Shown here in pieces: positions 26,501 to 47,593 of a stretch of 64,000 nt of DNA. The translations under genes were made by a program, and so were the position numbers. Under the pieces are notes generated by a model. The model had not been told where the DNA came from and searched no databases. It was given only the letters and a program-made list of their open reading frames with translations. Numbering within the stretch: the stretch's first letter is position 1; the number at the start of each line of letters is the position of its first letter. The DNA comes from an uncultured Gammaproteobacteria bacterium (lineage in GTDB: Bacteria; Patescibacteriota; Patescibacteriia; Magasanikbacterales; GWA2-37-8), in contig CAYHBZ010000001.1 in assembly GCA_964355175.1 (NCBI GenBank), forward strand, positions 240,523 through 304,522, written 5' to 3'.

Positions 26501-27268
26501 AGTTCCAGGAACAGCTTTAAATCCAAAAGTTACATCAACCAAAGCAGCTTCCATAGCAGTAACTTGAGTACCAGTGGAGTAACCAGTGGTAGAAGCCATA
26601 GCTACAGCAAATTTAGCTTGGAATTTGTTGGCAGTGAAACCAGTAGCAGTAACTTCGCGTAGGCTCTTGTTTGTAGCCACTACGTAAAATTTACCACCAT
26701 TGGAAACCAAAGCGCCTTCAGAAGGAGCAGCTTCAGTTACTTTCACAGTGCTCATGTTTTTAGCATGAAGTACCATGTCAGCGCTGGAAGCAGGAATTGT
26801 GCGGCCACCTTTTGCAGGTAAAGCAGCATAATTTGCACCATATAGACCAGTAGCGGCAGCAACAGACATTTCTGCCAATTTGCCGTCAGCCATAGTCACA
26901 TACAATTTTTCGGTTGAGCTATCTTTCAAAAGATAGGCGCCTGGGCGAGGAGCAACTACCCCAGCGGCTGGGAAAGAAGCCAAGCAGTCACCAGTAACAT
27001 ACTTGAAAGTATATTTGCTGTCGGCTGTCCAGGATTTAAAAATATCACCTTGTGGGAAATAAGATCTTGATTTGTCGGAGTTTACTACCCAGATATCGGC
27101 ACCGTTAGCTTTGACGAAATCGCCGGCAACAACGGTAGCGCAGTCAACCTGTGTAGCAGCTGTAGCAACAGCTGGTACCAAAGCAGCAACGCCCAAAGAC
27201 CAGAAAATGGTTGTAGAAGCAACACCTACAGTGAAGATCTTCTTACCCAATTTTAATAAATTGTTCAT
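23552..27268 (-). CDS. Secreted, Thr/Ser/Val/Ala/Gly-rich cell-surface protein (S-layer-like; 1239 aa from MNNLLKLGKK)
   Basis: N-terminal signal peptide KIFTVGVASTTIFWSLGVAALVPAVATAA. Low-complexity beta-rich composition. Elevated GC and codon bias relative to neighbours. Strong terminator. Sits beside the glycosylation genes. Confidence 0.55.
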   Translation of the reverse strand: MNNLLKLGKKIFTVGVASTTIFWSLGVAALVPAVATAATQVDCATVVAGDFVKANGADIWVVNSDKSRSYFPQGDIFKSWTADSKYTFKYVTGDCLASFPAAGVVAPRPGAYLLKDSSTEKLYVTMADGKLAEMSVAAATGLYGANYAALPAKGGRTIPASSADMVLHAKNMSTVKVTEAAPSEGALVSNGGKFYVVATNKSLREVTATGFTANKFQAKFAVAMASTTGYSTGTQVTAMEAALVDVTFGFKAVPGTVVVPPVSSGPVTVSLASDSPAATPLPQDATGVDFMHFNVSGSGTLNDLKLHRIGLGAYNDLASVYIYDGNNRLTSGRTVASDTNVVTFSNLKVALSSTPKTLRVVADLDTTLAVSGDADGFEVVSANNATVSGVVGSIMSIGASSVSAITVDNSGSTGSFGLGASKVEVARGTISASSATNDVKVVNMTLTNGGTLSNDYLANLKLTLGSSDVASAATMTGDHVVFTLATPYTITKGDTKTFVVYADNTGGRVADTVAFYVDETSDVRILDTQYNAGVNLTNSFATGNQTYTVTGGDLTLSNNGPAATNIGKNVTNVILQKFSFSSSNNVTVKSTKVSIFLTDSVSNALSTSTNYAFVKNVKIVDLDNSNQTMVGPQSDFGTGTTVSANSYYKVFTDSYDIAAGKTRHFAVVADIDTSMPSSMKVVSKVDYSGSNYVKYVDNSQYVSASVIVPNTLTGNSMTVTGAQLTVTRATPPASASVVKGSTQNALGLLLTAGTSDDLKITSLKLRVFASTTAISNDLGDTAANAVVNTVSLWEDGATTPLMTKNLSDLSGTIGSGGYYYVTFSSLNYKLKAGDSKKLVAQLVIKDSLTATRYVNVDVDPDDDIDVETFADGKSVTENSTSVINDSSPIYLTVTTGGSVTVAVDGSTPLADVVISGSATPVAMTTYKLTPTKESFTLTGAALALGTAAQYVDVKKAIVTYKNKAGETVNKECFLNSSGECTFSDGQLDAYLIKDQSNLITVSALFNTINDGAVSGDAVKIGFKKVSAQFSTTANLTNDFILLGEGSNSKQYGIVDSVALVDSSVTAKTIRKTNVAVAEGDTASVVHSTKAQDTVGVFTFTSSPEAGSNQNSTLGTLAVKLTGNLIAGDGNGNGSVTIYAYSGSTFDSAHLMGSVYLTSMATSTSDQVSIVLTAQNEWSGAKQVYLVADTTDADFSDTAASVEKLTTQLVTFSWGDGSSAYTNVAPVTGIPVYGKTYQY

Positions 27269-27338
27269 AATATATTTATAAGACTCCATTGTTTTGCGCG
27301 CGGCATGTAAACACACCGGTCAAACGCAATGGAATTTG

Positions 27339-27359
27339 TTTCCCGACTAAGTCGGGAAA
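27339..27359. promoter_or_regulatory. Perfect 9-3-9 palindrome TTTCCCGAC-TAA-GTCGGGAAA in the surface-protein upstream region
   Basis: Read directly from sequence. A second imperfect CCCGACA...TGTCGGG stem-loop lies at 27432-27470. Confidence 0.35.
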
Positions 27360-27489
27360 CGTACAAAGATTTTGCAGGCCCGTATGGACCCTCGACTTTT
27401 GGCAAAACCGAACTAAGTTACTTTTCCCTCTCCCGACAATATTTGTCTCACGCTGACAAGTGCTGTCGGGAAAAGAAAAACCCTGCTTA

Positions 27490-28809
27490 TTATCTTTTAA
27501 CCGGATTGGTGGTAGTGACTGGTGTCACTATTACTTTTATTTCCGGAGTGGACGAAGTGGAAGTGGTAATAATTACTTTTATATCTTTTGAGTTGTCAGT
27601 AGCCGCTACCACTACCGGCGATACCGGTACGAGTTGAGCGGCACTCACTATAGTCTTGTCGTAAATTTTTTCCGCTTCTTTGGTCACCGTATTTACATCT
27701 TTCATCGCTTGCACGGCTTGAGTGAGATCACCTTTATTGAGAGAATCTACCGCTTTGGCCACAGCCTGATCAGTAGTTTGGACAGCGGTTTTGGTTTGAG
27801 CCACTGCGACATTAGTAGCGGTGGAAATTTCAGAAATTTTTTGAGTCAAAGCGGCCGTGGTGCTAGCGCTGTTTGTTTTGTCGGCAGACAGATCAGCGGC
27901 CTGAGTCTTGGCGGCGTTTATTACATCTTTTATTTTACCTACGCTCTGACTAGACTGAGCGGCATCGGTAGCACTGGATTGAAGAGTAGTATTAATTTCT
28001 TTTTTTACATCCGCTGCGGAAACGCTGTTGTCCCCTTCTAAGTGTTTGGTCACCATTACTTCCATGGCTTTCACGGAAGCATCTTTGGCCAAGTCTTTTA
28101 CTTCACTCACTGCTTGTACGGTCTGCACGGCGGCATCGGTGGCTGGAGTAGTAGAAGTATTTTGAGCGGCGATACTGAGCAAGCTGGTCTTTACTTCTTG
28201 CAAAGTGTTTTTTACCGCATCGGTGTCTTGTTTTACATCTTTTACCACATCGGCGGACAGAGTTTTATTTGGATCGTTTTTTATTTCATCCAATTTCTGA
28301 TTGACATTGGCGATTTCAATTTTTAAATCATTGACCATCTCCTGAGCCCTGGCTTGTTTGGATGGATCGTTGCCTACTAGGATCTGCTTGGTTTCGTCAG
28401 CGCGGCGTTTGGCAAACTCGGCGTGCAATTTGGTTTCGGCTTTACTGGCACCCACCATCGCGGCCATTGTGACCTGAGTTTTTTCAGCGGCGCGTTTGGC
28501 CGGATACAACCAGTCACCAGGCAATGTATTGTAAGCCGCGTCGACACCGGTAATCCAACCGCTGGTGGCCACCACACTTACTATTAATAGTACGGCCATC
28601 GGACGCACTATATTGAAGACTACCGGACGAGGCATAAAGAGAGCCATCGCGTTCCAGACATTTTCGAGATTAATTTTAGGAGTTTGGCTGCCGACAGTAT
28701 TTTTTATTTGGGATAGCAAAAGGGCGCGGTTGTTTTTCAACCACGCTTCAGACGGCTTTACTTCGCCGTGTTTGAGCTGTTTAAGTTGTGAGATTAATTT
28801 TTTTGGCAT
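27490..28809 (-). CDS. Putative membrane-anchored anti-sigma factor (single TM, Ala/Thr/Gln-rich coiled extracytoplasmic region)
   Basis: Gene immediately 3' of the ECF sigma gene. One TM (MAVLLIVSVVATSGWI) followed by LPGDWLYPAKRAAEK. Confidence 0.45.
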   Translation of the reverse strand: MPKKLISQLKQLKHGEVKPSEAWLKNNRALLLSQIKNTVGSQTPKINLENVWNAMALFMPRPVVFNIVRPMAVLLIVSVVATSGWITGVDAAYNTLPGDWLYPAKRAAEKTQVTMAAMVGASKAETKLHAEFAKRRADETKQILVGNDPSKQARAQEMVNDLKIEIANVNQKLDEIKNDPNKTLSADVVKDVKQDTDAVKNTLQEVKTSLLSIAAQNTSTTPATDAAVQTVQAVSEVKDLAKDASVKAMEVMVTKHLEGDNSVSAADVKKEINTTLQSSATDAAQSSQSVGKIKDVINAAKTQAADLSADKTNSASTTAALTQKISEISTATNVAVAQTKTAVQTTDQAVAKAVDSLNKGDLTQAVQAMKDVNTVTKEAEKIYDKTIVSAAQLVPVSPVVVAATDNSKDIKVIITTSTSSTPEIKVIVTPVTTTNPVKR

Positions 28810-28817
28810 ATCCCAAC

Positions 28818-29378
28818 TTATTTTTTATCTCCCAAAATTTGTTTTAATTTTTTCAAAGCGCGATGCATAGTGACTCGCACGGACAATTGGCTCTTGCCAG
28901 TGATCTCGGCGATCTCACTGATATCGAGCTCATCAACATATTTCAAAGTCAGCACTTCCTGATATTCTTGTTTTAATTTTTTTATCGCTTCGATTATTTT
29001 TCCGGTTTCCATTTTATTGGCCAACTCGTCGTACCATTTACCTTCGTCCCCTACCTCGATATTTTCATCCAGGGTGACTTCTGGTTTGGCAGCGCGAGCG
29101 CGATAAAAATCGATAATACTGTTGCGTGCGATTTTATAGAGCAAGCCACTGAAACTTTTTATCTCCGGCTGTTCTTCGCTATTAGTAATTAGAAACTGCC
29201 AGGCCTTCAAAAAAACTTCTGAAGTGATATCCTCGGCATTCTCATGACTACTAACTTTAAAAAAAACGAAGCGGTAGATTCGTTGTACATATATATCGTA
29301 AAGTTCCGTGTAAGCTTCTGGATCCTTTTTTGTGAATATCCTATATAGTAGGATTTTCTCGGTAAGGAAGTTGCTCAT
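28818..29378 (-). CDS. ECF-type RNA polymerase sigma-70 family factor
   Basis: Region 2 YRFVFFKVSSHENAEDITSEVFLKAWQ. Region 4 LTLKYVDELDISEIAEITGKSQLSVRVTMHRALKKLKQIL. Confidence 0.85.
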   Translation of the reverse strand: MSNFLTEKILLYRIFTKKDPEAYTELYDIYVQRIYRFVFFKVSSHENAEDITSEVFLKAWQFLITNSEEQPEIKSFSGLLYKIARNSIIDFYRARAAKPEVTLDENIEVGDEGKWYDELANKMETGKIIEAIKKLKQEYQEVLTLKYVDELDISEIAEITGKSQLSVRVTMHRALKKLKQILGDKK

Positions 29379-36842: not shown

Positions 36843-37756
36843 ACTAATAAAATTAAACCCACACCAATTAATACTACCGCCAAAAATTCTTGAATCATTT
36901 CTGCCGGCGTATAATCTTCCTTAAAGACTTTTGGCCAAAAGCGGCTGAGCAACATTACGCCCAATATTAAAACCGCATATTGCAGACCACCCAGAGCGCT
37001 GACCAGCGACACACTGCCTATCGCCGTAGCGTATTGAATGAATAATACCGCGACTACCGCCAATATCTTATTAAAAATAATCAATCCGGTATGCTTATTT
37101 TTTTGAACCGCGAATTTATTTTTTATTTTATCCAGCCAGGTAGGACGCAGGAGAGATTTCAAAGTTTCAGGACTAAATAAAAAAAACAAACCGGATATAC
37201 CAATGAAAAATCGGCTCCAAACAAAGCCGGTCATAAATCCATATTTGTCATACAAATATTTGGCGCTCACATAAGATACGGCAAAAAATAATCCGGACAA
37301 AATCCCATAGACCACTCCCAAATGCAGACCATTATGTTTTTTACTTTTTTCAAACGCTATTAATACCGAACCAATAATCAGCAATCCCACCGCCCACAAT
37401 TCCGACGAAATCAAAGCTTCGCCCAAAAATAAATTACTAAAAATAAGCACAAACAATGGTGAAGCCGCTCCCACGAGCGGACCAACATGACTGACTTCAC
37501 TTTTTTCAAAACCCAAAAACATCATCCACATCGCCAAGGTGTAGGTGGTGCCGCAAATGATCGCCCATCCCCAATCCTCCCAACCGGATACCAATCCGGG
37601 ATAAAAAAAATAAAGAATAACAATTGCCAATAACGGGGCCGAAGAATAAAAAGTATAAAGTGCCGGTTTCACTTTCGCAGAAGACAATAAAAATTTATCA
37701 ACAATACAAACCAAAGCCAAAAGAATATAACCAGCCGCTGAAAATAAAAACCACAT
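36839..37756 (-). CDS. EamA/DMT-superfamily transporter (10 TM)
   Basis: Two 5-TM halves. Start overlaps the upstream stop (ATGA). Confidence 0.55.
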   Translation of the reverse strand: MWFLFSAAGYILLALVCIVDKFLLSSAKVKPALYTFYSSAPLLAIVILYFFYPGLVSGWEDWGWAIICGTTYTLAMWMMFLGFEKSEVSHVGPLVGAASPLFVLIFSNLFLGEALISSELWAVGLLIIGSVLIAFEKSKKHNGLHLGVVYGILSGLFFAVSYVSAKYLYDKYGFMTGFVWSRFFIGISGLFFLFSPETLKSLLRPTWLDKIKNKFAVQKNKHTGLIIFNKILAVVAVLFIQYATAIGSVSLVSALGGLQYAVLILGVMLLSRFWPKVFKEDYTPAEMIQEFLAVVLIGVGLILLV

Positions 37757-37872
37757 AAATATTTAAAATAAATTCTTTTATTATTATAACACAAAAAAAC
37801 ATCCGAATCTAATCGAATGTTTTTTGTTTTACCATATCCACTGTCTACTTTTTCAAATAAACATTGGACATG

Positions 37873-38397
37873 GAGAGTAGCGCGCGACTACCAACCCCAG
37901 AGGTCAGGTACGCGATGCGACGCAGACTACACGAGGCCAGCCTACTTCGGCCAGACACTCGGTGCGACGGCCGGCTGGACGGCGTGAATCCGGGGCGAAG
38001 ACGGACTGCGACTGGTCGTCCAGCGATCAGGATTGGCTTCGGGATGTACGAAGCCCTCCTCCTCGCCGACAGGCGACGTCAGGAGCGACGCAGCCGCCGG
38101 CTTGGGCTCAGCGCCACCGAGGCCACCGTGTCCGGACGGGAGGAAGTGCAAGGACTCGGGACCACCGCACTGGGCGCGGCTGAAATTTCGGACTGCCAAG
38201 GGATGTTGTGGATGGGAACGACCGTCGGACATGACTGCCTCCTTCTCTTGCGAGAAGTGTTGCGAGCTCTCTGCGATTGGCATTGAGCTGGCCTCCCACC
38301 ATAAAGCGAAGTTGCCAAAGAGCGGGGAAAGATTATCCAAACTTTAGATATTCTTTCCCCACTCTTTGCACAAACTTGCTGTTTGCGCGCTACTCTA
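37873..38397. repeat. ~525-bp GC-rich non-host-like block bounded by 13-bp terminal inverted repeats AGAGTAGCGCGCG / CGCGCGCTACTCT
   Basis: Abrupt jump to GC-rich composition versus ~35% flanks. Exact inverted repeat read from sequence. Only overlapping low-quality ORFs inside. Confidence 0.4.
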
Positions 38398-38562
38398 ATT
38401 TATAAAGAACAATCTCTCAAAGTAAATATATTTAAAAAAATAAAAATATATTTGCCTTGGGCATCGTCGTGGCTGTATGAAAACAACCACGACAATGTAA
38501 ATGTGAATATGAAATTCGCGCCAAAGCGCAAAGCTCATAAATACGAAAGAGCAAACTACCTG

Positions 38563-38601
38563 CCGCGGGTGGGCTACACAATCGAAACTGCGTAGCCCAC
38601 C
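38563..38601 (-). terminator. GC-rich 12-bp stem-loop downstream of the high-GC minus-strand ORF
   Basis: CGGGTGGGCTAC-(14 nt)-GTAGCCCACCCG, followed on the minus strand by a T-rich stretch. Confidence 0.4.
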
Positions 38602-38646
38602 CGGATGGCTGTCACGGACTCGATCTTCCCAGACTTCCTGCGCTAG

Positions 38647-39012
38647 CTACGCTGCCATGATCTTCACGATCGCGAGCTGGCACTTGGCGGCCAGCGGATC
38701 GTGTTCACGCTCGAGCGCCTTGCTCTCCCAGACCACCACGCGGGCGATCTGGGCGTGCGGCTTGATGGACTCGACGGCCGTGTGGACGGCAGGAATGCGG
38801 AACCGGTCGGCGGCGACTTCCACGACGTGGGTGTGCTGGAAGCGGCCGGGGCGCAGCTTCGTGCTGTCCTTCAGGGACTCGAGCACGATATGCGCAAGCT
38901 CTTCATCCGTCCCTTCGAAGTGGGGGCGGCTGTTGCTGGTCGGGCTGTACTTGCGCACGGTGGGGTGGAGTTTGATGCCTTGAATGCCATCGGGCACGGG
39001 GACAACGGTCAT
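38647..39012 (-). CDS. Hypothetical 121-aa protein encoded with strong GC3 codon bias (foreign-like)
   Basis: Codons overwhelmingly NNC/NNG (e.g. ACC GTT GTC CCC GTG CCC GAT GGC), unlike every neighbouring gene. Overlapping plus-strand ORFs are probably shadows. Confidence 0.45.
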   Translation of the reverse strand: MTVVPVPDGIQGIKLHPTVRKYSPTSNSRPHFEGTDEELAHIVLESLKDSTKLRPGRFQHTHVVEVAADRFRIPAVHTAVESIKPHAQIARVVVWESKALEREHDPLAAKCQLAIVKIMAA

Positions 39013-39451
39013 GGCGATACCTTTTCCTTGGCAAAAATCAATCTGTAGTCCTGGAGACTACTCTTCGCTCCGCGGTAGAGCGACCCCGGCCGATTGACAA
39101 TTTTTGTGCACTCCGGGAAATTATATCCAAATCATTAGATATATTTCCCCGGAATACACTTTTTTAAAAGAACTCTTTTTATAAAAAATCACCCTAATCT
39201 TTCGATTTAGGGTGATTGTTATAAATTTTATTTTATACAATTTTACCCTAAATCATTTACCCAAACAAAAGCATAGCGTACCAAGGTAGCTGTCTTCAAT
39301 GTCTTGCGAATGTTTAGATGGTTAAATTGCATACAAAAATAATCTTATCAGAAATTCAGAAAAAGTCAACTGGTCTATCCACATTGCGACCAAAACGCTT
39401 TTGGCCAATGACATTATTTGGCTTATTTTAGCCAAGATTTGCCCAAAGGCC

Positions 39452-39480
39452 TTGACAAAATCCTGTACTTGTGGTATCCT
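39452..39480 (+). promoter_or_regulatory. Putative sigma70 promoter TTGACA-17-TATCCT for the GT4 gene
   Basis: TTGACA 39452-39457. TGgTATCCT 39472-39480. About 33 nt upstream of ATG 39513. Confidence 0.4.
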
Positions 39481-39512
39481 TTAGAGTTTTAATTACTAAG
39501 TCAACGCCCAAT

Positions 39513-40676
39513 ATGCGTATAGCCATGATCGGACAAAAAGGTATCCCAGCCATCTACGGTGGCGTGGAGCGCCACGTGGAAGACTTGTCTCTGGAGTTGA
39601 CCAAACAAGGCCATGATATTTTGGTATACGCTCGCGCTTGGTACACCCCAACTGCTCTGAAAAATTACCACGGTGTACGCGTAATTCATACCCCTACTAT
39701 TCATACCAAAAATCTTGATGCCATTGTCGGTACTTTTACTGCCACTGTTCATGCCCTGTTTCAAAACTATGATGTAATTCATTATCATGGTGTTGGTCCG
39801 GCTTTACTTTCTTGGATTCCAAGATTGTTTGCGCCGAAAACAAAAGTGATTGTAACTTTCCATTGTATTGATCGCTACCACCAAAAATGGGGACCAGTGG
39901 CCAGACTGATGTTGTGGCTCGGTGAAAAAGCCGCTTGTACTTTCCCCCACCAGACTATCGTGGTATCTCGCACTATCCAAAGTTATTGTCTCAACGAATT
40001 CCAACGCAAAACCGATTTCATTCCAAATGGTGTAAGCATGGCCAAAAATATTGGCGATAGCTTGTTGCACAAATTTGATATCAAAAAGAACAAATATATT
40101 TTGATGGTCGCGCGTCTCGTGCGCCACAAAGGCGCTCACTATTTGCTAGAAGCTTGGCAGATTGCCCGTCAGCAATATCCACATTTGCTCAAAGACCATA
40201 AATTGGTAATTGTGGGTGGCAGTACTTTTACTGATAGTTATGTAAAAGAATTACGCCATATTGCGCGCGGTGATAAAAGTATTGTCTTTACCAACTGGCA
40301 GAATGGTCAGATACTCGAAGAGCTTTACAAAAATTGTGAGCTCTATGTAAACCCATCTGAAAATGAAGGGTTGCCAATCTCAGTACTGCAAGCCATGGCT
40401 TATGGTAAACCAGTATTGCTTTCCAACATTCCTGAACACTTGGAACTGATTGAAAATCCAAATTTTTTCTTTCACAATGCCAGCATCACTTCTTTGGCTG
40501 ATAAAATTGTGCAATTGATGAAAGATAAAGCCGCTCTATCCGAGCAAGGTGAAATCAATAAAACGCTCACAATCAAAAAATACGATTGGAAAAAATTGAG
40601 TCGTCAGACTTTGGCGGTGTATCACACCGGTGAAGATAAAATAAAAAAAGCACAATATAAAATCAGGCAAGCTTAA
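39513..40676 (+). CDS. Glycosyltransferase family 4 (GT-B). Start at MRIAMIGQKG rather than the ORF-track 39471.
   Basis: MRIAMIGQKGIPAIYGGVERHVEDL (GT4 N-terminus) ... NPSENEGLPISVLQAMAYGKPVLLSN (EX7E). Confidence 0.75.
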   Translation: MRIAMIGQKGIPAIYGGVERHVEDLSLELTKQGHDILVYARAWYTPTALKNYHGVRVIHTPTIHTKNLDAIVGTFTATVHALFQNYDVIHYHGVGPALLSWIPRLFAPKTKVIVTFHCIDRYHQKWGPVARLMLWLGEKAACTFPHQTIVVSRTIQSYCLNEFQRKTDFIPNGVSMAKNIGDSLLHKFDIKKNKYILMVARLVRHKGAHYLLEAWQIARQQYPHLLKDHKLVIVGGSTFTDSYVKELRHIARGDKSIVFTNWQNGQILEELYKNCELYVNPSENEGLPISVLQAMAYGKPVLLSNIPEHLELIENPNFFFHNASITSLADKIVQLMKDKAALSEQGEINKTLTIKKYDWKKLSRQTLAVYHTGEDKIKKAQYKIRQA

Positions 40677-40706
40677 ACTACACTACTACCCATTGTGTAG
40701 TTTTTG
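40675..40706 (+). terminator. Rho-independent terminator of the GT4 gene
   Basis: AAACTACAC-(11 nt)-GTGTAGTTT + TTT. The stem includes the stop codon. Confidence 0.55.
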
Positions 40707-40830
40707 CTATAAAATATATTTTTGATACTCACCTTTATTTTTAAATAGAGGTGATTTAAAAAGTATATTGAATTGTTCTTTTAAAAAAATGTCATTCCCG
40801 CGAAAGCGGGAATCTATATGTACTGATACA

Positions 40831-40891
40831 AGAGGCAAAAGGTATTATTTTTTTCTAAATTTTAGGAATACATAATACCCTTTGCCTCTGG
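40831..40891. repeat. 18-bp inverted repeat with a 25-nt loop at the left edge of GC island 2
   Basis: AGAGGCAAAAGGTATTAT ... ATAATACCCTTTGCCTCT. Confidence 0.35.
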
Positions 40892-40948
40892 AATTTTCTC
40901 CTGAGGCATCCGTCGGTTGGGCCCGACATTTCCCTCTGGAGGTATCCC

Positions 40949-41458
40949 ATGCGCCACAAGCGCTTCGTTCCCGTGTTCGTGGTTCTGGCCATTGTAGCCG
41001 CGCAACTCTTCACCGGGACCGCCAAGGCCGAGCCGGCCGTCGGCAAGGACATGCGCAAGCTGCACGTGATGAACAATTGTTCCGACGAGCAGTGCTTCTA
41101 CACCGAAATCCCCAAGGGCTGGCACGCCCCCAAGGAAAAACCAAACCCCGCGCAAGTCCGCCAAGTCTACTACCTGGCAGACGACCGCTCGAACCAGAAG
41201 AAGCTCTCGGTCGTTTCGATCACCCCGACCGACCAGGAAAAGAGCGACTTCAAGGAGAAGATGCATCAACAGTGCGAAGCGCAGTCGGCCCGGTACGGTT
41301 GGGACAAGAAAACCTGCCTGAACAACCGGCAAGAACTCAAGCAGACGATGTACGCGATCTGTACGCCCAGCATCAAGGGCTGCGACAAGTTCGAGTGCTT
41401 GAAGGACTGCTACGAGCCGTACCCGACCAAGCCGCCGGCGCGCAACGCCAAGAAGTAG
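40949..41458 (+). CDS. Secreted cysteine-rich 169-aa protein encoded in a high-GC, high-GC3 island
   Basis: Signal peptide MRHKRFVPVFVVLAIVAAQLFTGTAKA. Ten Cys. GGAGG RBS 7 nt upstream. Codon usage is NNC/NNG-dominated. Confidence 0.55.
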   Translation: MRHKRFVPVFVVLAIVAAQLFTGTAKAEPAVGKDMRKLHVMNNCSDEQCFYTEIPKGWHAPKEKPNPAQVRQVYYLADDRSNQKKLSVVSITPTDQEKSDFKEKMHQQCEAQSARYGWDKKTCLNNRQELKQTMYAICTPSIKGCDKFECLKDCYEPYPTKPPARNAKK

Positions 41459-41591
41459 ACGGGGGTGCTACCGTCGACGCGTGTCCCACTCGCCAACAAG
41501 CGGGCAGTGGGACGCAGGCAGTATAAAATATCACTCGCCGCGCAATTTGAAAATAACATATTTGTTTTCAGATTGTGCGAGTGATATAAAC

Positions 41592-41624
41592 GCTTAAATA
41601 TAAAAACATCCGAATTTTCGGGTG
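41592..41624 (+). terminator. Rho-independent terminator (ACATCCGAA-TT-TTCGGGTGT + T-run)
   Basis: A-run, 9-bp stem with one G-U pair, TTTTTTG. Confidence 0.5.
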
Positions 41625-41695
41625 TTTTTTGTTTATGATTGACTGCCTTGCCTATATTTTGTATACTAGGATTATTAAATAAAATAATAATTTAT

Positions 41696-42058
41696 ATGGA
41701 GGAAATTATTAAAAAATTAGATGTGCTTGATACCAAGGTCGAAAAAATCGACCAGAGGTTAGACGAGCACGGCGGTAAGTTCGAAAAGTTTTTCAACACC
41801 CTTGATGAGCATACAAACATACTAGATGAGCACACTGAACAATTGGATATTATCGCTCGTACGGTAGCAGAACATAGCGGACGCCTGGATAGAATCGAAT
41901 ACAAACTCGAAGGAATGGAAACTAAGATAGACAAAGTGATAAATATTTTGGATGATGTGGCTGGGTTGGTCAAAAAGCACGATGAAGAAATAGTGATAAT
42001 TAATCACAATCACAGAACATTGGATCGACGCGTAGAGATACTAGAACAGAAAGTTTAA
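41696..42058 (+). CDS. Small coiled-coil protein with repeated LDEH heptad-like motifs. Start at MEEIIKK.
   Basis: KIDQRLDEHGGKFEKFFNTLDEHTNILDEHTEQLDIIARTVAEHSGRLDRIEYKLEGME. Confidence 0.45.
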   Translation: MEEIIKKLDVLDTKVEKIDQRLDEHGGKFEKFFNTLDEHTNILDEHTEQLDIIARTVAEHSGRLDRIEYKLEGMETKIDKVINILDDVAGLVKKHDEEIVIINHNHRTLDRRVEILEQKV

Positions 42059-42103: not shown

Positions 42104-42805
42104 TTATTTTGTCGCGATCGCCACCAAATTACGGCCGGTCTTGCCAGTAAACTTTACATTACTATCATAAGACATTTTAATATTTTTAAATCCGGCTCTT
42201 TTTAAAAGTGATTTTAATTCCTCTTGGCTAAAATGATGATAATACCTTTTTACTATCGACTCCCCTTTTCCATTTTTCCAAGGAACAATAAAATCATTCT
42301 CATTAATTTTTTCCCAATCTGTTTTCAATTTACTTTGCGCCCAATCGGATTCAAAATTCCAATTCCTTAAAATTATTTTCCCTTTTGGTTTTAATTCCTG
42401 ATAAATTTTTTTGAGCGTATCCAGGCGAGTGGCATCATCTGGCAAATGATGAAAAGAGGCTATAAAAAATGCCAAATCGAAAAATTCATTTGAAAATTTT
42501 TTTGGTCGGGCGGCGGTAGAAAAAAATTTAACTTGGCCAGATTTAATTTTATCGGCCCATTGTTTCTTGGCCTCGCTGAGCAATCCAATACTTTGATCCA
42601 AACCAAAATAGTTTACTTTTTTACCTTCAAGTAAATAAATAAGCCGTCCATTGCCGCAGCCCCAATCCAAAATATTTTGACCATTTTTAAGAAGTTTTTT
42701 AAACGGTTTGAGGTCGTCTCCAAGCTTGTAACGGGTAGCGGCATATAGGGGGGCGATAAGGTTGTAATCTTCCCGGGTTTTGTGTATAATGGCCTTTGAA
42801 TCCAT
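42104..42805 (-). CDS. Class I SAM-dependent methyltransferase (start MDSKAIIHK at complement of 42803-42805)
   Basis: ILDWGCGNGRLIYLL motif I. FFIASFHHLPDD. Confidence 0.65.
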   Translation of the reverse strand: MDSKAIIHKTREDYNLIAPLYAATRYKLGDDLKPFKKLLKNGQNILDWGCGNGRLIYLLEGKKVNYFGLDQSIGLLSEAKKQWADKIKSGQVKFFSTAARPKKFSNEFFDLAFFIASFHHLPDDATRLDTLKKIYQELKPKGKIILRNWNFESDWAQSKLKTDWEKINENDFIVPWKNGKGESIVKRYYHHFSQEELKSLLKRAGFKNIKMSYDSNVKFTGKTGRNLVAIATK

Positions 42806-44416
42806 ATGGAAAAAATCAAGAGTATTGAAGAAAAAATTATCCGGGAGTGCTATAAAAAACCTCCAAAAAAACCAGACGATATCAATGTGATAAAGCGTCG
42901 AATTTTGCGCGCCCATTTTGGCGGCGGCACACCACCGACTTCGACACAATTGCTTAAAGCATATCATAAACTAGTCAAAGAAAACAAGCTCAAACCCAAC
43001 CTGGCTCTGGAAAATGTGCTCCAGCGCCGCGCGGTGCGCACCATGTCCGGTGTGACTATCGTCACTGCTCTCACCAAGCCATATCCATGCCCAGGTCTCT
43101 GCACCTACTGCCCCACCGAAGCGCGCATGCCCAAGAGTTATATTTCCGACGAGCCGGCGGCGGCCCGGGCTTTGGCTTTGGAATTTGATCCTTATGAACA
43201 AACTTGGCGCCGTCTCGAGGCGCTACGCAAAAATGGCCATCCGATTGATAAGGTAGAATTAATTATCAAAGGTGGTACTTGGAATTCTTATCCGATTACT
43301 TATCAATACTGGTTTATCGCCCGCTGTTTTGAAGCCTGCAATCGCGTACGCAAAACCAAAGTATCGGAAAAAATGACGTTGGATGAATTGCGAGCGGCGA
43401 TGGTAAAAATTCAAAATAAAAATGAAACGGCTAAACATCGTATTATTGGTTTAACTTTGGAAACTCGTCCGGATTTTATTACTCATAAAACAATTCTCGC
43501 GATGCGTGAAATGGGTACCACTCGTATTGAAATCGGTGTGCAGCATATCGACGAAAAAATAATGAAGATGACCAAACGCGGACATGGACTGAAAGAAACC
43601 GTAGACGCAAGTAAACTTTTGCGCCAATACGGATTTAAAGTAGATTATCATTTGATGCCGCAACTGCCATTTAGCACTCCAGCCAAAGATCTCAAAATGT
43701 TACGCCAAATTTTTACCGACAATCGTCTGCGTCCCGACATGATTAAAATTTATCCATGTACGGTCGTAAAAAATTCCGAATTATACGAATGGGTAAAAAC
43801 CGGACAGTTCAAACCTTACGCCGACAAACATCTTCTGCGAATTCTCAAAGAATTTAAATCTGATGTCCCCCGCTATCTACGCATCTCGCGCCTGATTCGT
43901 GACATTCCATCTCATCATATCGTGGCGGGAAATATGGTCACCAATTTACGCCAAGTAATTCAAGCGGAAATGAAAGCCGAAGGAAACACTTGTCGCTGTT
44001 TGCGTTGTCGCGAAGTGGGCCACCAGACCGAGATTGATTGGAAAAAAGAAAAAATAAAAAAATTCGTAGACCAATACGAAACCAGCGGTGGCCAAGAATA
44101 CTTTATGAGTTTTGAAAATGAAACGCGTGACGCGGTGTTGGCTTTTTGTCGCTTCCGTATTGATCCGTCCGGCATCTATCCGGCCTTTGTGCGCGAGCTA
44201 CATGTATACGGACAGTCCGTAGAAATCGCTGGACACAAAAAAGGCGCTTCTCAACACACTGGCTTTGGAAAAGAACTGGTAAAAACCGCGATGGAAATTT
44301 GTAAACAAAATAAAATACCGCGCTTGGCGGTAATTTCGGGTGTGGGCGTGCGTGATTACTATCGCAAACAAGGTGCGAAGCTGGATGGAAATTATATGGT
44401 CTTTGATGTTAAATAA
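42806..44416 (+). CDS. Elp3-like tRNA-modifying radical-SAM + GNAT acetyltransferase
   Basis: KPYPCPGLCTYCP (Elp3-type CX9CX2C radical-SAM cluster) ... IEIGVQHIDEKI ... C-terminal GNAT QHTGFGKELVKTAMEIC. Confidence 0.8.
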   Translation: MEKIKSIEEKIIRECYKKPPKKPDDINVIKRRILRAHFGGGTPPTSTQLLKAYHKLVKENKLKPNLALENVLQRRAVRTMSGVTIVTALTKPYPCPGLCTYCPTEARMPKSYISDEPAAARALALEFDPYEQTWRRLEALRKNGHPIDKVELIIKGGTWNSYPITYQYWFIARCFEACNRVRKTKVSEKMTLDELRAAMVKIQNKNETAKHRIIGLTLETRPDFITHKTILAMREMGTTRIEIGVQHIDEKIMKMTKRGHGLKETVDASKLLRQYGFKVDYHLMPQLPFSTPAKDLKMLRQIFTDNRLRPDMIKIYPCTVVKNSELYEWVKTGQFKPYADKHLLRILKEFKSDVPRYLRISRLIRDIPSHHIVAGNMVTNLRQVIQAEMKAEGNTCRCLRCREVGHQTEIDWKKEKIKKFVDQYETSGGQEYFMSFENETRDAVLAFCRFRIDPSGIYPAFVRELHVYGQSVEIAGHKKGASQHTGFGKELVKTAMEICKQNKIPRLAVISGVGVRDYYRKQGAKLDGNYMVFDVK

Positions 44417-46997: not shown

Positions 46998-47137
46998 ATT
47001 CTATAAAATTGTTCTTTGATAAGTTTCGCTTACCAATAGCAAAAAGGAAGTATATAATGCTTCTTATTTGCTGTTGGGAGGTGAACGAAACTTTTCGTTC
47101 TGTTTCACTTCAGTAAACCCGAGCCCAAGGAAAGAAA

Positions 47138-47440
47138 GTGCAGATCCTATTTACGATCTTGGTCCCGTCTGTTTTGGCCTACCTTCTCTTCATTTTCGGG
47201 CGGCGACAACTCCGCAAGAGGGAGTGGGCGCGCCTCACCGGGAAGCGGTGGCAGGAACCGAGCAGCGAGTTCGAAAACACCTGGTCATTCCAGGACACGA
47301 TCCTCACGGTCATCGCCAAGTCCGGCGATCATGACCGCTTCGAAGCTACTCGCAAGCTTGCTAGCCAATTGGAGCTCGGACATCCGTGGACCAGCCGTCC
47401 GCGCGAGATTCCGCAATTCGGGGTCTACGCCAACCGATGA
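47138..47440 (+). CDS. Small (100 aa) high-GC membrane protein with a GTG start
   Basis: AAGGAAAG SD 5 nt upstream of GTG. N-terminal TM ILFTILVPSVLAYLLFIFG. GC-rich codons, in contrast to flanks. Confidence 0.4.
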   Translation: MQILFTILVPSVLAYLLFIFGRRQLRKREWARLTGKRWQEPSSEFENTWSFQDTILTVIAKSGDHDRFEATRKLASQLELGHPWTSRPREIPQFGVYANR

Positions 47441-47539
47441 ATCCGACGAGACAGAACGAAGACGGCGACGGAGTGCAAACTCCGCCGCCTGCTTCAATGA
47501 AATACTTTTGCAAAAAGGTAAAGGTACTTGATTAAAGCA

Positions 47540-47580
47540 AATTTAAAAAATAAAAAAGAACTAAAATTTTTTAGTTCTTT
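47540..47580. terminator. AT-rich bidirectional hairpin terminator between island 3 and pyk
   Basis: AAGAACTAA-AATTTT-TTAGTTCTT flanked by A- and T-runs. Confidence 0.4.
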
Positions 47581-47593
47581 TTTATTTTTTAAA

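What the first reader, a model, noticed from the sequence alone, without database searches (positions are those of the whole stretch)
40893..41535. High-GC island 2 encodes a secreted, 10-Cys protein with a canonical GGAGG RBS
A ~640-bp block of about 58% GC sits between the terminator of the GT4 gene and an AT-rich terminator. It carries a 169-aa ORF with a clear signal peptide, a cysteine-rich mature part, a GGAGG Shine-Dalgarno at the ideal spacing, and codon usage dominated by NNC/NNG, completely unlike the host genes. The left boundary coincides with an 18-bp inverted repeat with a 25-nt loop (40831-40891). The right flank has two further GC stem-loops (41481-41511, 41532-41590). It looks like an acquired, expressed cargo gene (secreted effector, bacteriocin-like or adhesin fragment?) from a high-GC donor.
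Basis: seen in the sequence. Interest (0 to 1): 0.65.

Follow-up and report, generated by a model that had tools for sequence, protein, structure and literature searches.

The report
GC-rich secreted-protein cassette with shared UTRs
The high-GC block is a real gene for a small exported, disulfide-rich protein, but rather than a one-off foreign import it is one member of an apparently undescribed family of GC-rich single-gene cassettes, each wrapped in the same structured leader and trailer sequences, scattered through the AT-rich genomes of Magasanikbacteria (candidate phyla radiation).

Summary
Window 40893-41535 is 59% GC in a 39% GC Magasanikbacteria genome. The 169-aa ORF (40949-41458) has GC3 0.86 against 0.23-0.45 for host genes, a Sec-type signal peptide and 8 cysteines, not 10. 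An independent Logan assembly matches it 100% across the junctions.

Homologs with 50% and 34% identity sit in the same GT4-methyltransferase slot of other AT-rich relatives. Where DNA is available, the homolog has GC3 0.79, all 8 Cys conserved and dN/dS 0.41. No donor homolog exists in 5.8 billion proteins.

The gene lies in a complete transcription unit:
- a promoter and a leader box GTTCTTTTAAAA;
- a long 5' hairpin and an SD-sequestering helix;
- the ORF;
- a GC hairpin, a 26-bp bulged hairpin favoured on the sense strand, and a terminator.

The same 3' module follows unrelated GC-rich ORFs (GC3 0.60-0.91) at 13 other metagenomic loci. The window holds three more cassettes of this class.

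Relatives carry other cargo, two cassettes or an empty remnant in this slot. The window encodes no recombinase. Why the bodies are GC-rich remains unexplained.

The parts
40740..40769 (+). sigma-70-like promoter (TTTAAA-18-TATATT) upstream of the cassette
   Evidence: Consensus scan, 9/12 matches. The region is conserved in L070 and L084. Other cassettes have near-consensus TTGACA-17-TATACT or GATACT promoters; in L083 and L085 these sit at the same place relative to the leader box. Function is predicted only.
40775..40786 (+). leader box GTTCTTTTAAAA at the predicted 5' end of the transcript
   Evidence: The same box (GTTCTTTWWAAA) precedes all four cassettes of the window and those of L083, L084, L085, L094, L097 and L098. 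In 1.28 Mb of related loci, 14 of 69 boxes are followed by a GC-rich body, against 3.4% of random positions. It is also the left end-point of the L070 deletion and of the cargo swap relative to L084.
40794..40813 (+). small hairpin ATTCCCGCGAAAGCGGGAAT
   Evidence: Unique in the window. L097 has ATTCCCATGAAAATGGGAAT at the same place, which is a compensatory change in the stem.
40829..40891 (+). long 5' leader hairpin (about 24 bp, AT-rich apex)
   Evidence: -27.1 kcal/mol, z -7.65. The structure is shared by two sequence types (A and B) and by cassettes 1a and 1b. Eleven of 15 consensus pairs show compensatory changes.
40898..40942 (+). GC-rich proximal 5'UTR
   Evidence: CUCC (40898-40901) and GAGG are paired with CCUC and the GGAGG Shine-Dalgarno (40938-40942), around the small hairpin GUCGG/CCGAC (40912-40927). 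This pairing appears in both the MFE and the centroid structure; the leader z-score is -6.3. The small hairpin is present in 8/8 aligned leaders. SD pairing is also predicted in L097c2 and L085.
40949..41458 (+). ORF for a 169-aa pre-protein with 8 Cys
   Evidence: GC3 0.86. Four relatives were found in 1.84 billion representative proteins. Against the L097 homolog: 50% identity, dN/dS 0.41, 8/8 Cys aligned. No Pfam, PHROG, NCBIfam or PDB match. The AF2 model has pLDDT 68.5 and no fold match.
40949..41026 (+). signal-peptide coding part (residues 1-26, predicted cleavage AKA|EP)
   Evidence: Sequence features and hydropathy. SignalP was not run, so this is inferred.
41481..41516 (+). conserved GC hairpin GTCCCACTCGCCAACAAGCGGGCAGTGGGAC with a bulged C
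   Evidence: Folded. Present after unrelated ORFs in L083, L084, L085, L088, L090, L091, L094, L096, L097 and L002.
41528..41587 (+). 26-bp hairpin with a 3-nt bulge (imperfect palindrome ATCACTCGCCGCGCAATTTGAAAA...TTTTCAGATTGTGCGAGTGAT)
   Evidence: The left arm is at least 95% conserved in 13 loci that were found through the right arm only. It has three G.U pairs on the + strand, and all three one-sided changes keep pairing. The + strand folds at -30.8 kcal/mol and the - strand at -20.0. Loop length varies between 9 and 15 nt.
41586..41595 (+). conserved single-stranded linker ATAAACGCTT
   Evidence: Nearly invariant in alignments A2 and A5. Function unknown.
41602..41630 (+). intrinsic terminator closing the unit
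   Evidence: Terminator scan. The stem covaries among the 14 aligned modules.
38425..39173 (-). sister cassette 1b
   Evidence: Contains a box, a 5' hairpin (39106-39159), a 121-aa ORFan (38647-39012, GC3 0.86), a GC hairpin (38566-38603) and a terminator. The protein has no homolog other than itself.
37795..38410 (-). sister cassette 1a (slot conserved in relatives)
   Evidence: Contains a box, a 5'/3' closing helix AGAGTAGCGCGC/GCGCGCTACTCT, a 5' hairpin (38316-38368), a variable GC-rich body, a 3' hairpin and a terminator. The flanks are conserved in the seven aligned sequences (window plus six relatives) while the body is variable and 52-61% GC. The whole unit has z -10.5 and the closing helix is in the MFE structure.
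47011..47590 (+). fourth cassette of the class
   Evidence: Contains the box GTTCTTTGATA, a 5' hairpin (47033-47077), a 100-aa ORF (47138-47440, GC3 0.74) with an N-terminal hydrophobic helix, a GC hairpin and a terminator.

Best explanation
Island 2 is a self-contained accessory transcription unit spanning about 40740-41630. It belongs to a family of small-gene cassettes endemic to Magasanikbacteria-like CPR genomes.

The unit, in order (structures are predicted; expression is inferred):
- a sigma-70-type promoter, driving a transcript that begins at a conserved leader box;
- a long 5' stem-loop;
- a GC-rich proximal 5'UTR in which the Shine-Dalgarno is sequestered;
- the ORF;
- a three-hairpin 3' trailer: a GC hairpin, a 26-bp bulged hairpin and an intrinsic terminator.

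The ORF encodes a 169-aa precursor. It is exported through Sec and matures to a protein of about 143 aa with 8 conserved cysteines. I infer a disulfide-stabilised extracellular or cell-surface protein. Its molecular function is unknown.

The leader and trailer most likely act as RNA, protecting the mRNA ends, gating translation and terminating transcription.

The same modules flank unrelated ORFs elsewhere. Cargo at a given slot therefore turns over by recombination within the shared modules and by deletion, without a dedicated recombinase nearby.

The high GC content is a regional, long-standing property of the cassette bodies as a class. It is not the footprint of a recent transfer from a high-GC donor. 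What maintains it is not established.
For: Real and coding:
- The GC1/2/3 periodicity is 0.54/0.38/0.86.
- Against the L097 homolog, dN/dS is 0.41 and 8/8 Cys are conserved.
- The family is small: exhaustive HMM search found four relatives. Three (P0003, P0004, P0005) lie in CPR cassette contexts. The fourth, P0002, is on a short 63% GC contig whose host is unknown.

Not chimeric: a 100% identical independent contig spans the junctions.

Family membership:
- An exact 19-mer from the right arm of the palindrome found 13 true metagenomic loci, most in other gene neighbourhoods.
- Of the eleven loci long enough to judge, each has a body of 300-700 bp that is more GC-rich than its surroundings, peaking at 53-66% GC. 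Each holds an ORF of GC3 0.60-0.91. Only two pairs of these ORFs are homologous.
- Shared 5' modules are shown. Covariation in the 5' hairpin is shown.
- The box is associated with a downstream GC-rich body in 14 of 69 cases, against 3.4% at random.

RNA-level modules:
- The 3' hairpin strongly prefers the sense strand (-30.8 against -20.0 kcal/mol).
- G.U pairs and one-sided changes keep pairing, and the terminator stem covaries.
- z-scores are -6.3 for the leader and -8.6 for the trailer, but only -1.8 for the ORF body.
- The variable loop length argues against a fixed recombinase spacer.

Slot turnover at GT4-MT:
- homolog in L097 and in the ERZ1426829 contig;
- other cargo in L084, L094 and L006;
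- two cassettes in tandem in L097;
- an empty remnant in L070, keeping only the loop and right arm of the palindrome.

Long residence: 4-fold identity is 67% for the cargo against 54% for GT4, and dS is 1.04 against 1.91.

Regional GC: the non-coding segment between the stop codon and the palindrome is 55% GC over 13 cassettes.

No recombinase, transposase or reverse transcriptase was found among the ORFs of 80 aa or more that were scanned, which is all but metK.
Against: - Everything is in silico. The promoter, transcript ends, SD sequestration and secretion are predictions.
- The family was sampled through one exact 19-mer, so only close variants of one 3' module type were seen. The right arm is invariant by construction.
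- The palindrome's sequence conservation, bulge and sense-strand preference would also fit a folded single-stranded DNA site.
- Both the L070 junction and the cargo-swap boundary coincide with the leader box. The box shares TTTKAAAA with the palindrome arm, which leaves room for site-specific recombination.
- Retention of GC3 at about 0.8 exceeds my rough neutral-decay expectation of about 0.7 only moderately. An old import with slow amelioration, or repeated re-import, is therefore not excluded.
- P0002 lies on a 63% GC contig of unknown origin.
- The cause of the GC-richness is unexplained.
Confidence: 0.68

Rival explanations
1. Classical horizontal transfer. A single gene recently acquired from a high-GC donor was inserted between GT4 and the next gene and has not yet ameliorated.
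For: GC3 is 0.86 in a genome with GC3 of about 0.4. The gene is absent from the two closest relatives at this site, L070 and L004. One family member, P0002, lies on a 63% GC contig.
Against: Homologs lie in the same slot of other AT-rich relatives, with the same leader and trailer where DNA is available and GC3 0.79. Divergence is comparable with the neighbouring gene. No homolog was found in any other context in 5.8 billion or 1.84 billion proteins. The GC-rich block is bounded by conserved AT-rich modules shared with unrelated cassettes. L070 looks like a deletion remnant that retains half of the palindrome.
Confidence: 0.07
2. Integron-like or other site-specific cassette system. The conserved bulged palindrome, possibly together with the leader box, would be a DNA recombination site folded as single-stranded DNA. 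A recombinase encoded elsewhere in the genome would insert and excise the cassettes.
For: The imperfect palindrome has extrahelical bases, strong strand asymmetry and sequence conservation across loci. The same site holds different cargo, and tandem cassettes occur. In the L070 empty site the junction falls exactly in TTTTAAAA/TTTGAAAA, which is shared by the box and the palindrome arm. The cargo is small and mostly of unknown function.
Against: The palindrome has no RYYYAAC/GTTRRRY core sites (read). Its loop or spacer length varies from 9 to 15 nt. The favoured strand is the sense strand and a covarying terminator follows at once. Several cassettes show their own predicted promoter. No integrase or transposase is encoded in 64 kb. 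The cargo-swap right boundary lies at the GC hairpin, not in the palindrome. An 8-11 nt microhomology deletion explains L070 equally well.
Confidence: 0.15
3. Reservoir model. The cassettes live mainly on an unsampled GC-rich replicon or organism that carries the same modules. They are repeatedly copied into CPR chromosomes by homologous recombination in the modules, and then ameliorate.
For: GC3 ranges from 0.91 down to 0.60 among cassettes, which could be an age series. L002 is 63% GC yet carries the same 3' GC hairpin after a family member. The 3' module is 95% identical between the window and L084, while adjacent host DNA is 81% identical.
Against: The old, syntenic families are among the most GC-rich: the P0001 family, and slot 1a, which is found in the window and eight relatives. 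The modules were not found on viral contigs, and neither the protein in phage records nor the cassette DNA in plasmid records gave a match. The outer modules are AT-rich, as expected of the CPR host.
Confidence: 0.1
4. Artefact or non-coding. The block would be an assembly chimera, or a GC-rich structured RNA with a chance ORF.
For: GC-rich DNA has few stop codons. Cassette 1a shows little codon periodicity.
Against: An independent assembly is identical. For island 2 the periodicity is strong, dN/dS is 0.41 and all cysteines are conserved. The body's folding z-score is only -1.8. There is no Rfam hit.
Confidence: 0.02

Closest known systems
Phage 'morons' (autonomous promoter-ORF-terminator units of atypical composition; Cumby et al. 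2012, PMC3594210)
   Same: A single small ORF with its own predicted promoter and intrinsic terminator. Its base composition differs from the surroundings, it lies between unrelated genes, and it is an accessory found in some relatives only.
   Different: The context is chromosomal housekeeping and envelope genes, not a prophage, and there are no PHROG hits. Unrelated cargos share conserved structured leader and trailer modules, which is not a feature of morons.
Integron gene cassettes with attC sites (including CALIN/SALIN-type attC sites without an integrase)
   Same: Small, mostly orphan ORFs, each followed by an imperfect palindrome with extrahelical bases. Cargo is variable at one site, and short tandem arrays occur.
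   Different: There are no R''/R' core motifs and no intI or attI. Several cassettes have their own predicted promoter and terminator. The palindrome favours the sense strand and behaves like an RNA hairpin with variable loop length. Copies are dispersed as single or double units.
Intergenic repeat palindromes in transcribed 3' regions (REP/BIME, ERIC, Correia-type elements)
   Same: A multi-copy, sequence-conserved imperfect palindrome lies downstream of genes. It plausibly acts on mRNA stability or termination.
   Different: Here the palindrome is coupled to a GC hairpin, a conserved linker and a terminator. It is specifically associated with GC-rich ORFs that also share a 5' leader.
Neisseria 'minimal mobile elements' and other replacement islets exchanged by homologous recombination (from my own knowledge)
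   Same: One slot between conserved genes (GT4 and the methyltransferase/Elp3 pair) holds different genes in different lineages, with no recombinase.
   Different: Homology for exchange could lie in the cassette's own modules as well as in the flanking genes. The same modules occur at many unrelated loci.
SD-sequestering leaders and fold-back mRNAs (RNA thermometers; hok-type 5'-3' fold-back; from my own knowledge)
   Same: The Shine-Dalgarno is paired in a conserved helix. Sister cassette 1a has a conserved 12-bp 5'-3' closing helix.
   Different: The cargo is exported or membrane proteins of 75-240 aa, not toxins. No trigger or antisense RNA was identified.

Membership tests
Integron gene cassette | attC site with R'' (RYYYAAC) and R' (GTTRRRY) core sites flanking an imperfect palindrome | tested here: not met
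   Direct reading of 41528-41587 on both strands gives only GTTTTCA and GTTATTT, neither of which fits GTTRRRY. The alignment of 14 modules shows no such cores.
Integron gene cassette | intI tyrosine recombinase with attI and Pc next to the array | tested here: not met
   Pfam scan of all ORFs of 80 aa or more in the 64-kb window except metK found no integrase or recombinase. The rest of the roughly 954-kb genome was not available.
Integron gene cassette | promoterless cassettes expressed from a common Pc | tested here: not met
   Near-consensus TTGACA-17-TATACT or GATACT promoters lie immediately upstream of the cassettes in L083, L085 and L090. A weaker promoter-like site lies at 40740-40769.
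Integron gene cassette | different cassettes at the same site in related genomes; tandem arrays | tested here: met
   The GT4-MT slot holds a 169-aa family member, a 115-aa protein, a 178-aa lipoprotein, two cassettes, or nothing.
Phage moron | independent transcription unit (own promoter and terminator) with atypical composition | tested here: met
   These are predictions, not expression data.
Phage moron | located within a phage or prophage genome | tested here: not met
   The neighbours are GT4, EamA, a methyltransferase, Elp3-like, SHMT and pyruvate kinase. There is no PHROG hit and no match in phage records or viral contigs.
Recently transferred genomic islet from a high-GC donor | homologs in candidate donor lineages; absence from relatives of the recipient | tested here: not met
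   The only homologs are P0002-P0005. Three of the four lie in CPR cassette contexts, including the same slot. The context of P0002 is unknown.
Recently transferred genomic islet from a high-GC donor | atypical composition relative to the host | tested here: met
   GC is 59% against 39%. GC3 is 0.86 against 0.23-0.45.
MITE / IS200-IS605-type (PATE) non-autonomous element | terminal inverted repeats or subterminal hairpins at both ends, defined target or duplication, cognate transposase in the genome | tested here: inconclusive
   Hairpins are present near both ends. An imperfect 8-11 nt direct repeat, TTTTAAAAAAA/TTTGAAAATAA, lies at the L070 deletion end-points. No terminal inverted repeats were found and no transposase is encoded in the window.
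REP/ERIC-like intergenic repeat | multi-copy conserved imperfect palindrome in transcribed intergenic DNA | tested here: met
   Thirteen loci carry the module. The covariance model found weaker second matches within L006 and L090. The coupling to GC-rich ORFs and 5' modules goes beyond this family.
Known RNA families (Rfam 15) | match to a curated covariance model | tested here: not met
   The whole window at gathering score gave only tRNA-Val. Positions 37700-41700 at E<=1 gave only chance-level hits, all far below the gathering scores.

The most novel reading that the evidence does not exclude
Magasanikbacteria, and perhaps other CPR bacteria, may run a dedicated gene-cassette system. Expression-ready slots would each consist of a promoter, a leader box, a 5' hairpin, a gated SD, 3' hairpins and a terminator. 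These slots would hold a fast-turning-over repertoire of orphan, mostly exported proteins. Their bodies would be kept GC-rich by a local process not described before, such as GC-biased conversion or RNA-mediated copying bounded by the hairpins, or exchange with a hidden GC-rich reservoir. This would amount to a new mechanism for generating and shuffling a variable secretome in episymbiotic ultra-small bacteria.
Probability: 0.25. Interest if true: 0.88.

Novelty: new variant of a known kind. Interest (0 to 1): 0.72.

Why it matters
CPR bacteria depend on other cells, and their exported proteins are the likely interface. Most of those proteins are orphans of unknown origin.

This locus shows that at least part of that orphan secretome is organised in modular cassettes with shared regulatory RNA structures. 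The cassettes have a compositional signature that standard methods would misread as foreign DNA or contamination.

That has four consequences:
- It gives a handle for finding such genes genome-wide, using covariance models of the leader and trailer.
- It warns against GC-based HGT or contamination calls in CPR MAGs.
- It raises a testable question about what keeps a 600-bp tract at GC3 of about 0.8 in a genome at about 0.4.
- It offers a natural system for studying how new small proteins are expressed, exchanged and lost.

Tried and rejected
- Donor search found no donor. The 169-aa protein, the 121-aa island-1b protein and the Bax1-I fragment of L092 have no close homologs.
- Phage or plasmid origin was not supported. 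The protein had no match in phage records, the cassette DNA had none in plasmid records, and the 3' module motifs had none in viral contigs.
- Rfam matched neither the islands nor the modules.
- The small hairpin at 40794-40813 fits the ATTCCC-N8-GGGAAT pattern that I recalled for Neisseria dRS3. It is single-copy in the window and rare in the loci, so I dropped the idea.
- Hypermutation or DGR-like diversification of the body was rejected. dS of the cargo is lower than that of the neighbouring gene, and 4-fold identity is higher. The sense strand is not depleted of adenine (AT skew is positive).
- Selection for overall mRNA body structure was rejected, since the ORF z-score is only -1.8.
- A conserved 5'-3' closing helix for island 2, like the one in cassette 1a, was rejected. 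A 7-bp helix appears in the MFE structure, but I found no conserved counterpart in L084, L085 or L097 by inspection.
- Island 1a as RNase P, tmRNA or another known RNA was not supported.
- Literature searches for CPR with GC-rich cassettes or integrons found nothing relevant.
Full report
**1. The observation**

The window comes from a Candidatus Magasanikbacteria (CPR) genome. The best relatives of its GT4 gene are Magasanikbacteria MAGs. The gene for the 169-aa protein is recorded on a 953,736-bp contig.

The window is 38.9% GC overall. Positions 40893-41535 are 59.1% GC. Only three blocks of 500 bp or more reach this level in 64 kb: 37826-38338, 38510-39103 and 40865-41581.

The ORF 40949-41458 encodes 169 aa with GC1/GC2/GC3 of 0.54/0.38/0.86. 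Host-like ORFs in the window have GC3 of 0.23-0.45. The protein has 8 cysteines, not 10.

GGAGG lies at 40938-40942, six nt before the ATG. The N-terminus, MRHKR / FVPVFVVLAIVAAQLF / TGTAKA|EP, has the shape of a Sec signal peptide. I base this on sequence features and hydropathy, because SignalP was not available.

The flanking hairpins are real and far beyond chance. z is -7.65 for 40826-40894 and -8.40 for 41526-41590.

A Logan contig assembled independently from SRR24858484 equals window 38177-41555 at 100% identity. Chimerism is therefore excluded.

**2. The protein**

No Pfam, PHROG, NCBIfam or PDB sequence match was found. An AlphaFold2 model built from a five-sequence alignment reached pLDDT 68.5. 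It has no PDB fold match with E below 1.

The word-indexed search of 5.8 billion proteins found only the protein itself and P0002. An exhaustive profile search of 1.84 billion representatives found four relatives, P0002 to P0005.

Against the L097 homolog (P0003):
- amino-acid identity is 50% and all 8 Cys align;
- dN/dS is 0.41.

This is a real protein under purifying selection, but an orphan family.

**3. Where the relatives are**

- **P0003** lies in L097, downstream of a GT4 ortholog. It has the same 5' hairpin, 5'UTR and 3' GC hairpin plus palindrome as the window gene. Its GC3 is 0.79, while the GT4 next to it has GC3 of 0.39.
- **P0005** (34% identity) lies on an 84.9-kb contig between GT4 and the methyltransferase/Elp3 pair. 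This is the same slot.
- **P0004** (L098) is a truncated mosaic. It joins another leader type and signal peptide to the N-terminal domain of this family.
- **P0002** (L002) is followed by the same 3' GC hairpin but lies on a 63% GC, 853-bp contig.

Shared 4-fold sites are 67% identical for the cargo and 54% for GT4 between the window and L097. Between L084 and L094 the figures are 63% and 47%. dS is 1.04 against 1.91 in the first pair.

The cassette has thus diverged about as much as its neighbour, without hypermutation, and has stayed GC-rich.

**4. The slot**

Synteny of glycosyl hydrolase, EamA, [gap], GT4, [gap], (coiled-coil gene), methyltransferase and Elp3 is conserved across dozens of relatives.

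Downstream of GT4 the slot holds:
- the 169-aa gene in the window;
- two cassettes in L097;
- a 115/116-aa secreted Cys protein in L084 and L094;
- a 178-aa lipoprotein in L006;
- nothing in L004, L003 and L009.

L070, the closest relative (GT4 90% identical), has an 'empty' remnant. It keeps the promoter region, gttgTTTTAAAA, and then the loop and right arm of the palindrome plus a terminator.

The two homology blocks between the window and L070 overlap by 11 nt in L070. This corresponds to window 40779-40789 (TTTTAAAAAAA) and 41546-41556 (TTTGAAAATAA). It fits either a microhomology deletion or recombination at a short shared core.

**5. The family**

A metagenome scan with the 19-mer TTTCAGATTGTGCGAGTGA, taken from the right arm of the palindrome, returned 14 loci. 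Thirteen are genuine.

All 13 also carry:
- the left arm ATCACTCGCCGCGCAATTTGAAAA;
- a conserved linker ATAAACGCTT;
- a terminator whose stem covaries.

Nine of the 13, plus L097 and L002, also carry the GC hairpin CCCACTCGCC-AACAA-GCGGGCAGTGGG.

Most of these loci lie in other gene neighbourhoods, for example next to lysyl-tRNA synthetase or PNPase.

Of the eleven loci long enough to judge, each has a body of 300-700 bp that is more GC-rich than its surroundings. The bodies peak at 53-66% GC in backgrounds of 36-43%. The ORFs they hold have GC3 of 0.60-0.91. Only two pairs among these ORFs are homologous. About half have an N-terminal signal-like or transmembrane segment. One is the C-terminal part of a Bax1-I/YccA-type membrane protein.

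The non-coding stretch between the stop codon and the palindrome is also 55% GC. The GC-richness is therefore regional and not a matter of codon choice.

On the 5' side, the aligned cassettes share:
- a leader box GTTCTTTWWAAA, which in L083 and L085 lies 9 nt after a near-consensus promoter (TTGACA-17-TATACT or GATACT);
- a 24-30-bp hairpin in two sequence types, with compensatory changes in 11 of 15 consensus pairs;
- a small GUCGG/CCGAC hairpin and an SD.

L090 and L086 carry a near-consensus promoter but lack the box and the long hairpin.

Across 1.28 Mb of related loci, the box is followed by a GC-rich body in 14 of 69 cases, against 3.4% for random positions.

The window itself holds three more cassettes of this class:
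- 1a at 37795-38410 (-);
- 1b at 38425-39173 (-), carrying a 121-aa ORFan;
- a fourth at 47011-47590 (+).

**6. How the modules probably work**

The 3' palindrome folds into a 26-bp helix with a 3-nt bulge.
- It contains three G.U pairs on the sense strand.
- The three one-sided substitutions seen among 14 copies all preserve pairing.
- The sense strand folds at -30.8 kcal/mol and the antisense strand at -20.0.
- The loop varies from 9 to 15 nt.
- A covarying intrinsic terminator follows.

These features point to an RNA structure in the 3'UTR rather than a double-stranded recombinase site. A folded sense-strand DNA cannot be excluded.

The leader (z -6.3) is predicted to pair the GGAGG with an upstream CUCC in both the MFE and the centroid structure. 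The same arrangement is predicted in L097c2 and L085.

Cassette 1a also has an SD-containing hairpin, plus a conserved 12-bp 5'-3' closing helix that shows a compensatory change in L008.

I infer that the modules have three roles:
- they protect the mRNA ends;
- they gate translation;
- they may be processing sites, since stems of this length are typical RNase III substrates (from my own knowledge).

The ORF body is not unusually structured, with z -1.8.

**7. What it is not**

- **Integron.** The palindrome has no GTTRRRY/RYYYAAC cores. Several cassettes have their own predicted promoter. Pfam scans of the ORFs of 80 aa or more, all but metK, found no integrase, transposase or reverse transcriptase.
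- **Phage or plasmid.** There were no matches.
- **Known RNA families.** None matched.
- **Literature.** Searches found no description of such cassettes in CPR bacteria.

The nearest concept is the phage 'moron', an autonomous promoter-ORF-terminator unit of atypical composition (PMC3594210). This unit, however, sits in a chromosomal setting, and its structured UTR modules are shared among unrelated cargos.

**8. What remains open**

The cause of the GC-richness is not explained.

Against simple import followed by decay:
- the oldest, syntenic cassettes are still GC-rich. These are the P0001 family in three lineages and slot 1a in the window and eight relatives, where a shared internal motif shows common descent;
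- no donors exist in the databases.

Against certainty:
- my rough neutral-decay estimate of about 0.7 is not far below the observed 0.79-0.86;
- GC3 varies from 0.60 to 0.91 among cassettes;
- L002 hints at a GC-rich context.

Three explanations remain open: GC-biased conversion in recombination-prone cassettes, selection for nuclease-resistant long-lived mRNAs, and a hidden GC-rich reservoir.

**9. Verdict**

The sequence-level observation is real, with minor corrections. The 'foreign cargo from a high-GC donor' reading is largely wrong.

What is there is more interesting. The block is one member of an apparently undescribed family of GC-rich, mostly exported orphan-protein cassettes with shared structured leaders and trailers in Magasanikbacteria.

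Interest is 0.72. Novelty: a new variant of a known kind (autonomous accessory gene cassettes). I put about a one-in-four chance on it reflecting a genuinely new cassette-maintenance mechanism.

Noticed in passing
Its flanks (leader box, 5' hairpin 38316-38368, 3' hairpin and terminator) are conserved in the window and eight relatives, while the GC-rich body of 311-571 nt is highly variable. A 12-bp helix AGAGTAGCGCGC/GCGCGCTACTCT joins the 5' and 3' ends and shows a compensatory change in L008. The whole unit has z -10.5. It shows little codon periodicity, so it may be partly or wholly non-coding.
   Followed up: partly
window 38425-39173 (- strand): Cassette 1b carries a 121-aa ORF (38647-39012) with GC3 0.86. 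It has no homolog other than itself in 5.8 billion proteins and no family match. It lies in tandem with cassette 1a on the same strand.
   Followed up: partly
window 47011-47590 (+ strand): A fourth GC-rich cassette lies between the SHMT and pyruvate kinase genes. It has the box GTTCTTTGATA, a 5' hairpin at 47033-47077, a 100-aa ORF (47138-47440, GC3 0.74) with an N-terminal hydrophobic helix, a GC hairpin and a bidirectional terminator.
   Followed up: partly
L070 640-740: The closest relative has an 'empty' slot that keeps only the loop and right arm of the 3' palindrome. The junction falls in TTTTAAAATAA, an 11-nt overlap of the two homology blocks. This is either a microhomology deletion or a site-specific excision scar.
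   Followed up: partly
L098 1-400 and L084/L094 cargo starts: These cassettes are mosaics. The type-B leader and the signal peptide MRSDRKLQL... are joined to a 115-aa cargo in L084 and L094, but to the N-terminal domain of the 169-aa family in L098. This implies recombination inside cassettes.
   Followed up: no
L086 (oriented) 9011-9035 and 9682-9706: Two consecutive cassettes begin with an identical 25-bp promoter segment, GTATTGACAAAAATGAACTTTTGTG, and similar 5'UTRs. They carry different cargo and different long 3' palindromes.
   Followed up: no
L092 (oriented) 1846-2073: The cargo here is only the C-terminal quarter of a Bax1-I/YccA-type membrane protein (Pfam positions 155-207 of 207), with GC3 0.91. 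It lacks a 5' module and abuts a host gene start, so it is a truncated cassette.
   Followed up: partly
window 42104-42967 (-) and 42806-44416 (+): The methyltransferase ORF, as called from its first ATG, overlaps the divergently oriented Elp3-like radical-SAM/GNAT gene by about 160 nt. Its true start is probably further in. An Elp3 homolog in a CPR bacterium is itself notable.
   Followed up: no
window 23552-29378 and 55846-63957: An ECF-type sigma factor (28818-29378) lies next to a DUF5667 protein and a 1254-aa protein with no Pfam domain. Separately, a 2703-aa protein carries Laminin_G_3 and Big_5 domains, next to two small proteins with TSP3 repeats. These are probably large surface proteins.
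   Followed up: no
window 41586-41595: The decamer ATAAACGCTT, between the 3' palindrome and the terminator, is nearly invariant in the 14 aligned modules and is predicted to be single-stranded. It could be a seed or protein-binding site of a 3'UTR-derived small RNA.
   Followed up: no
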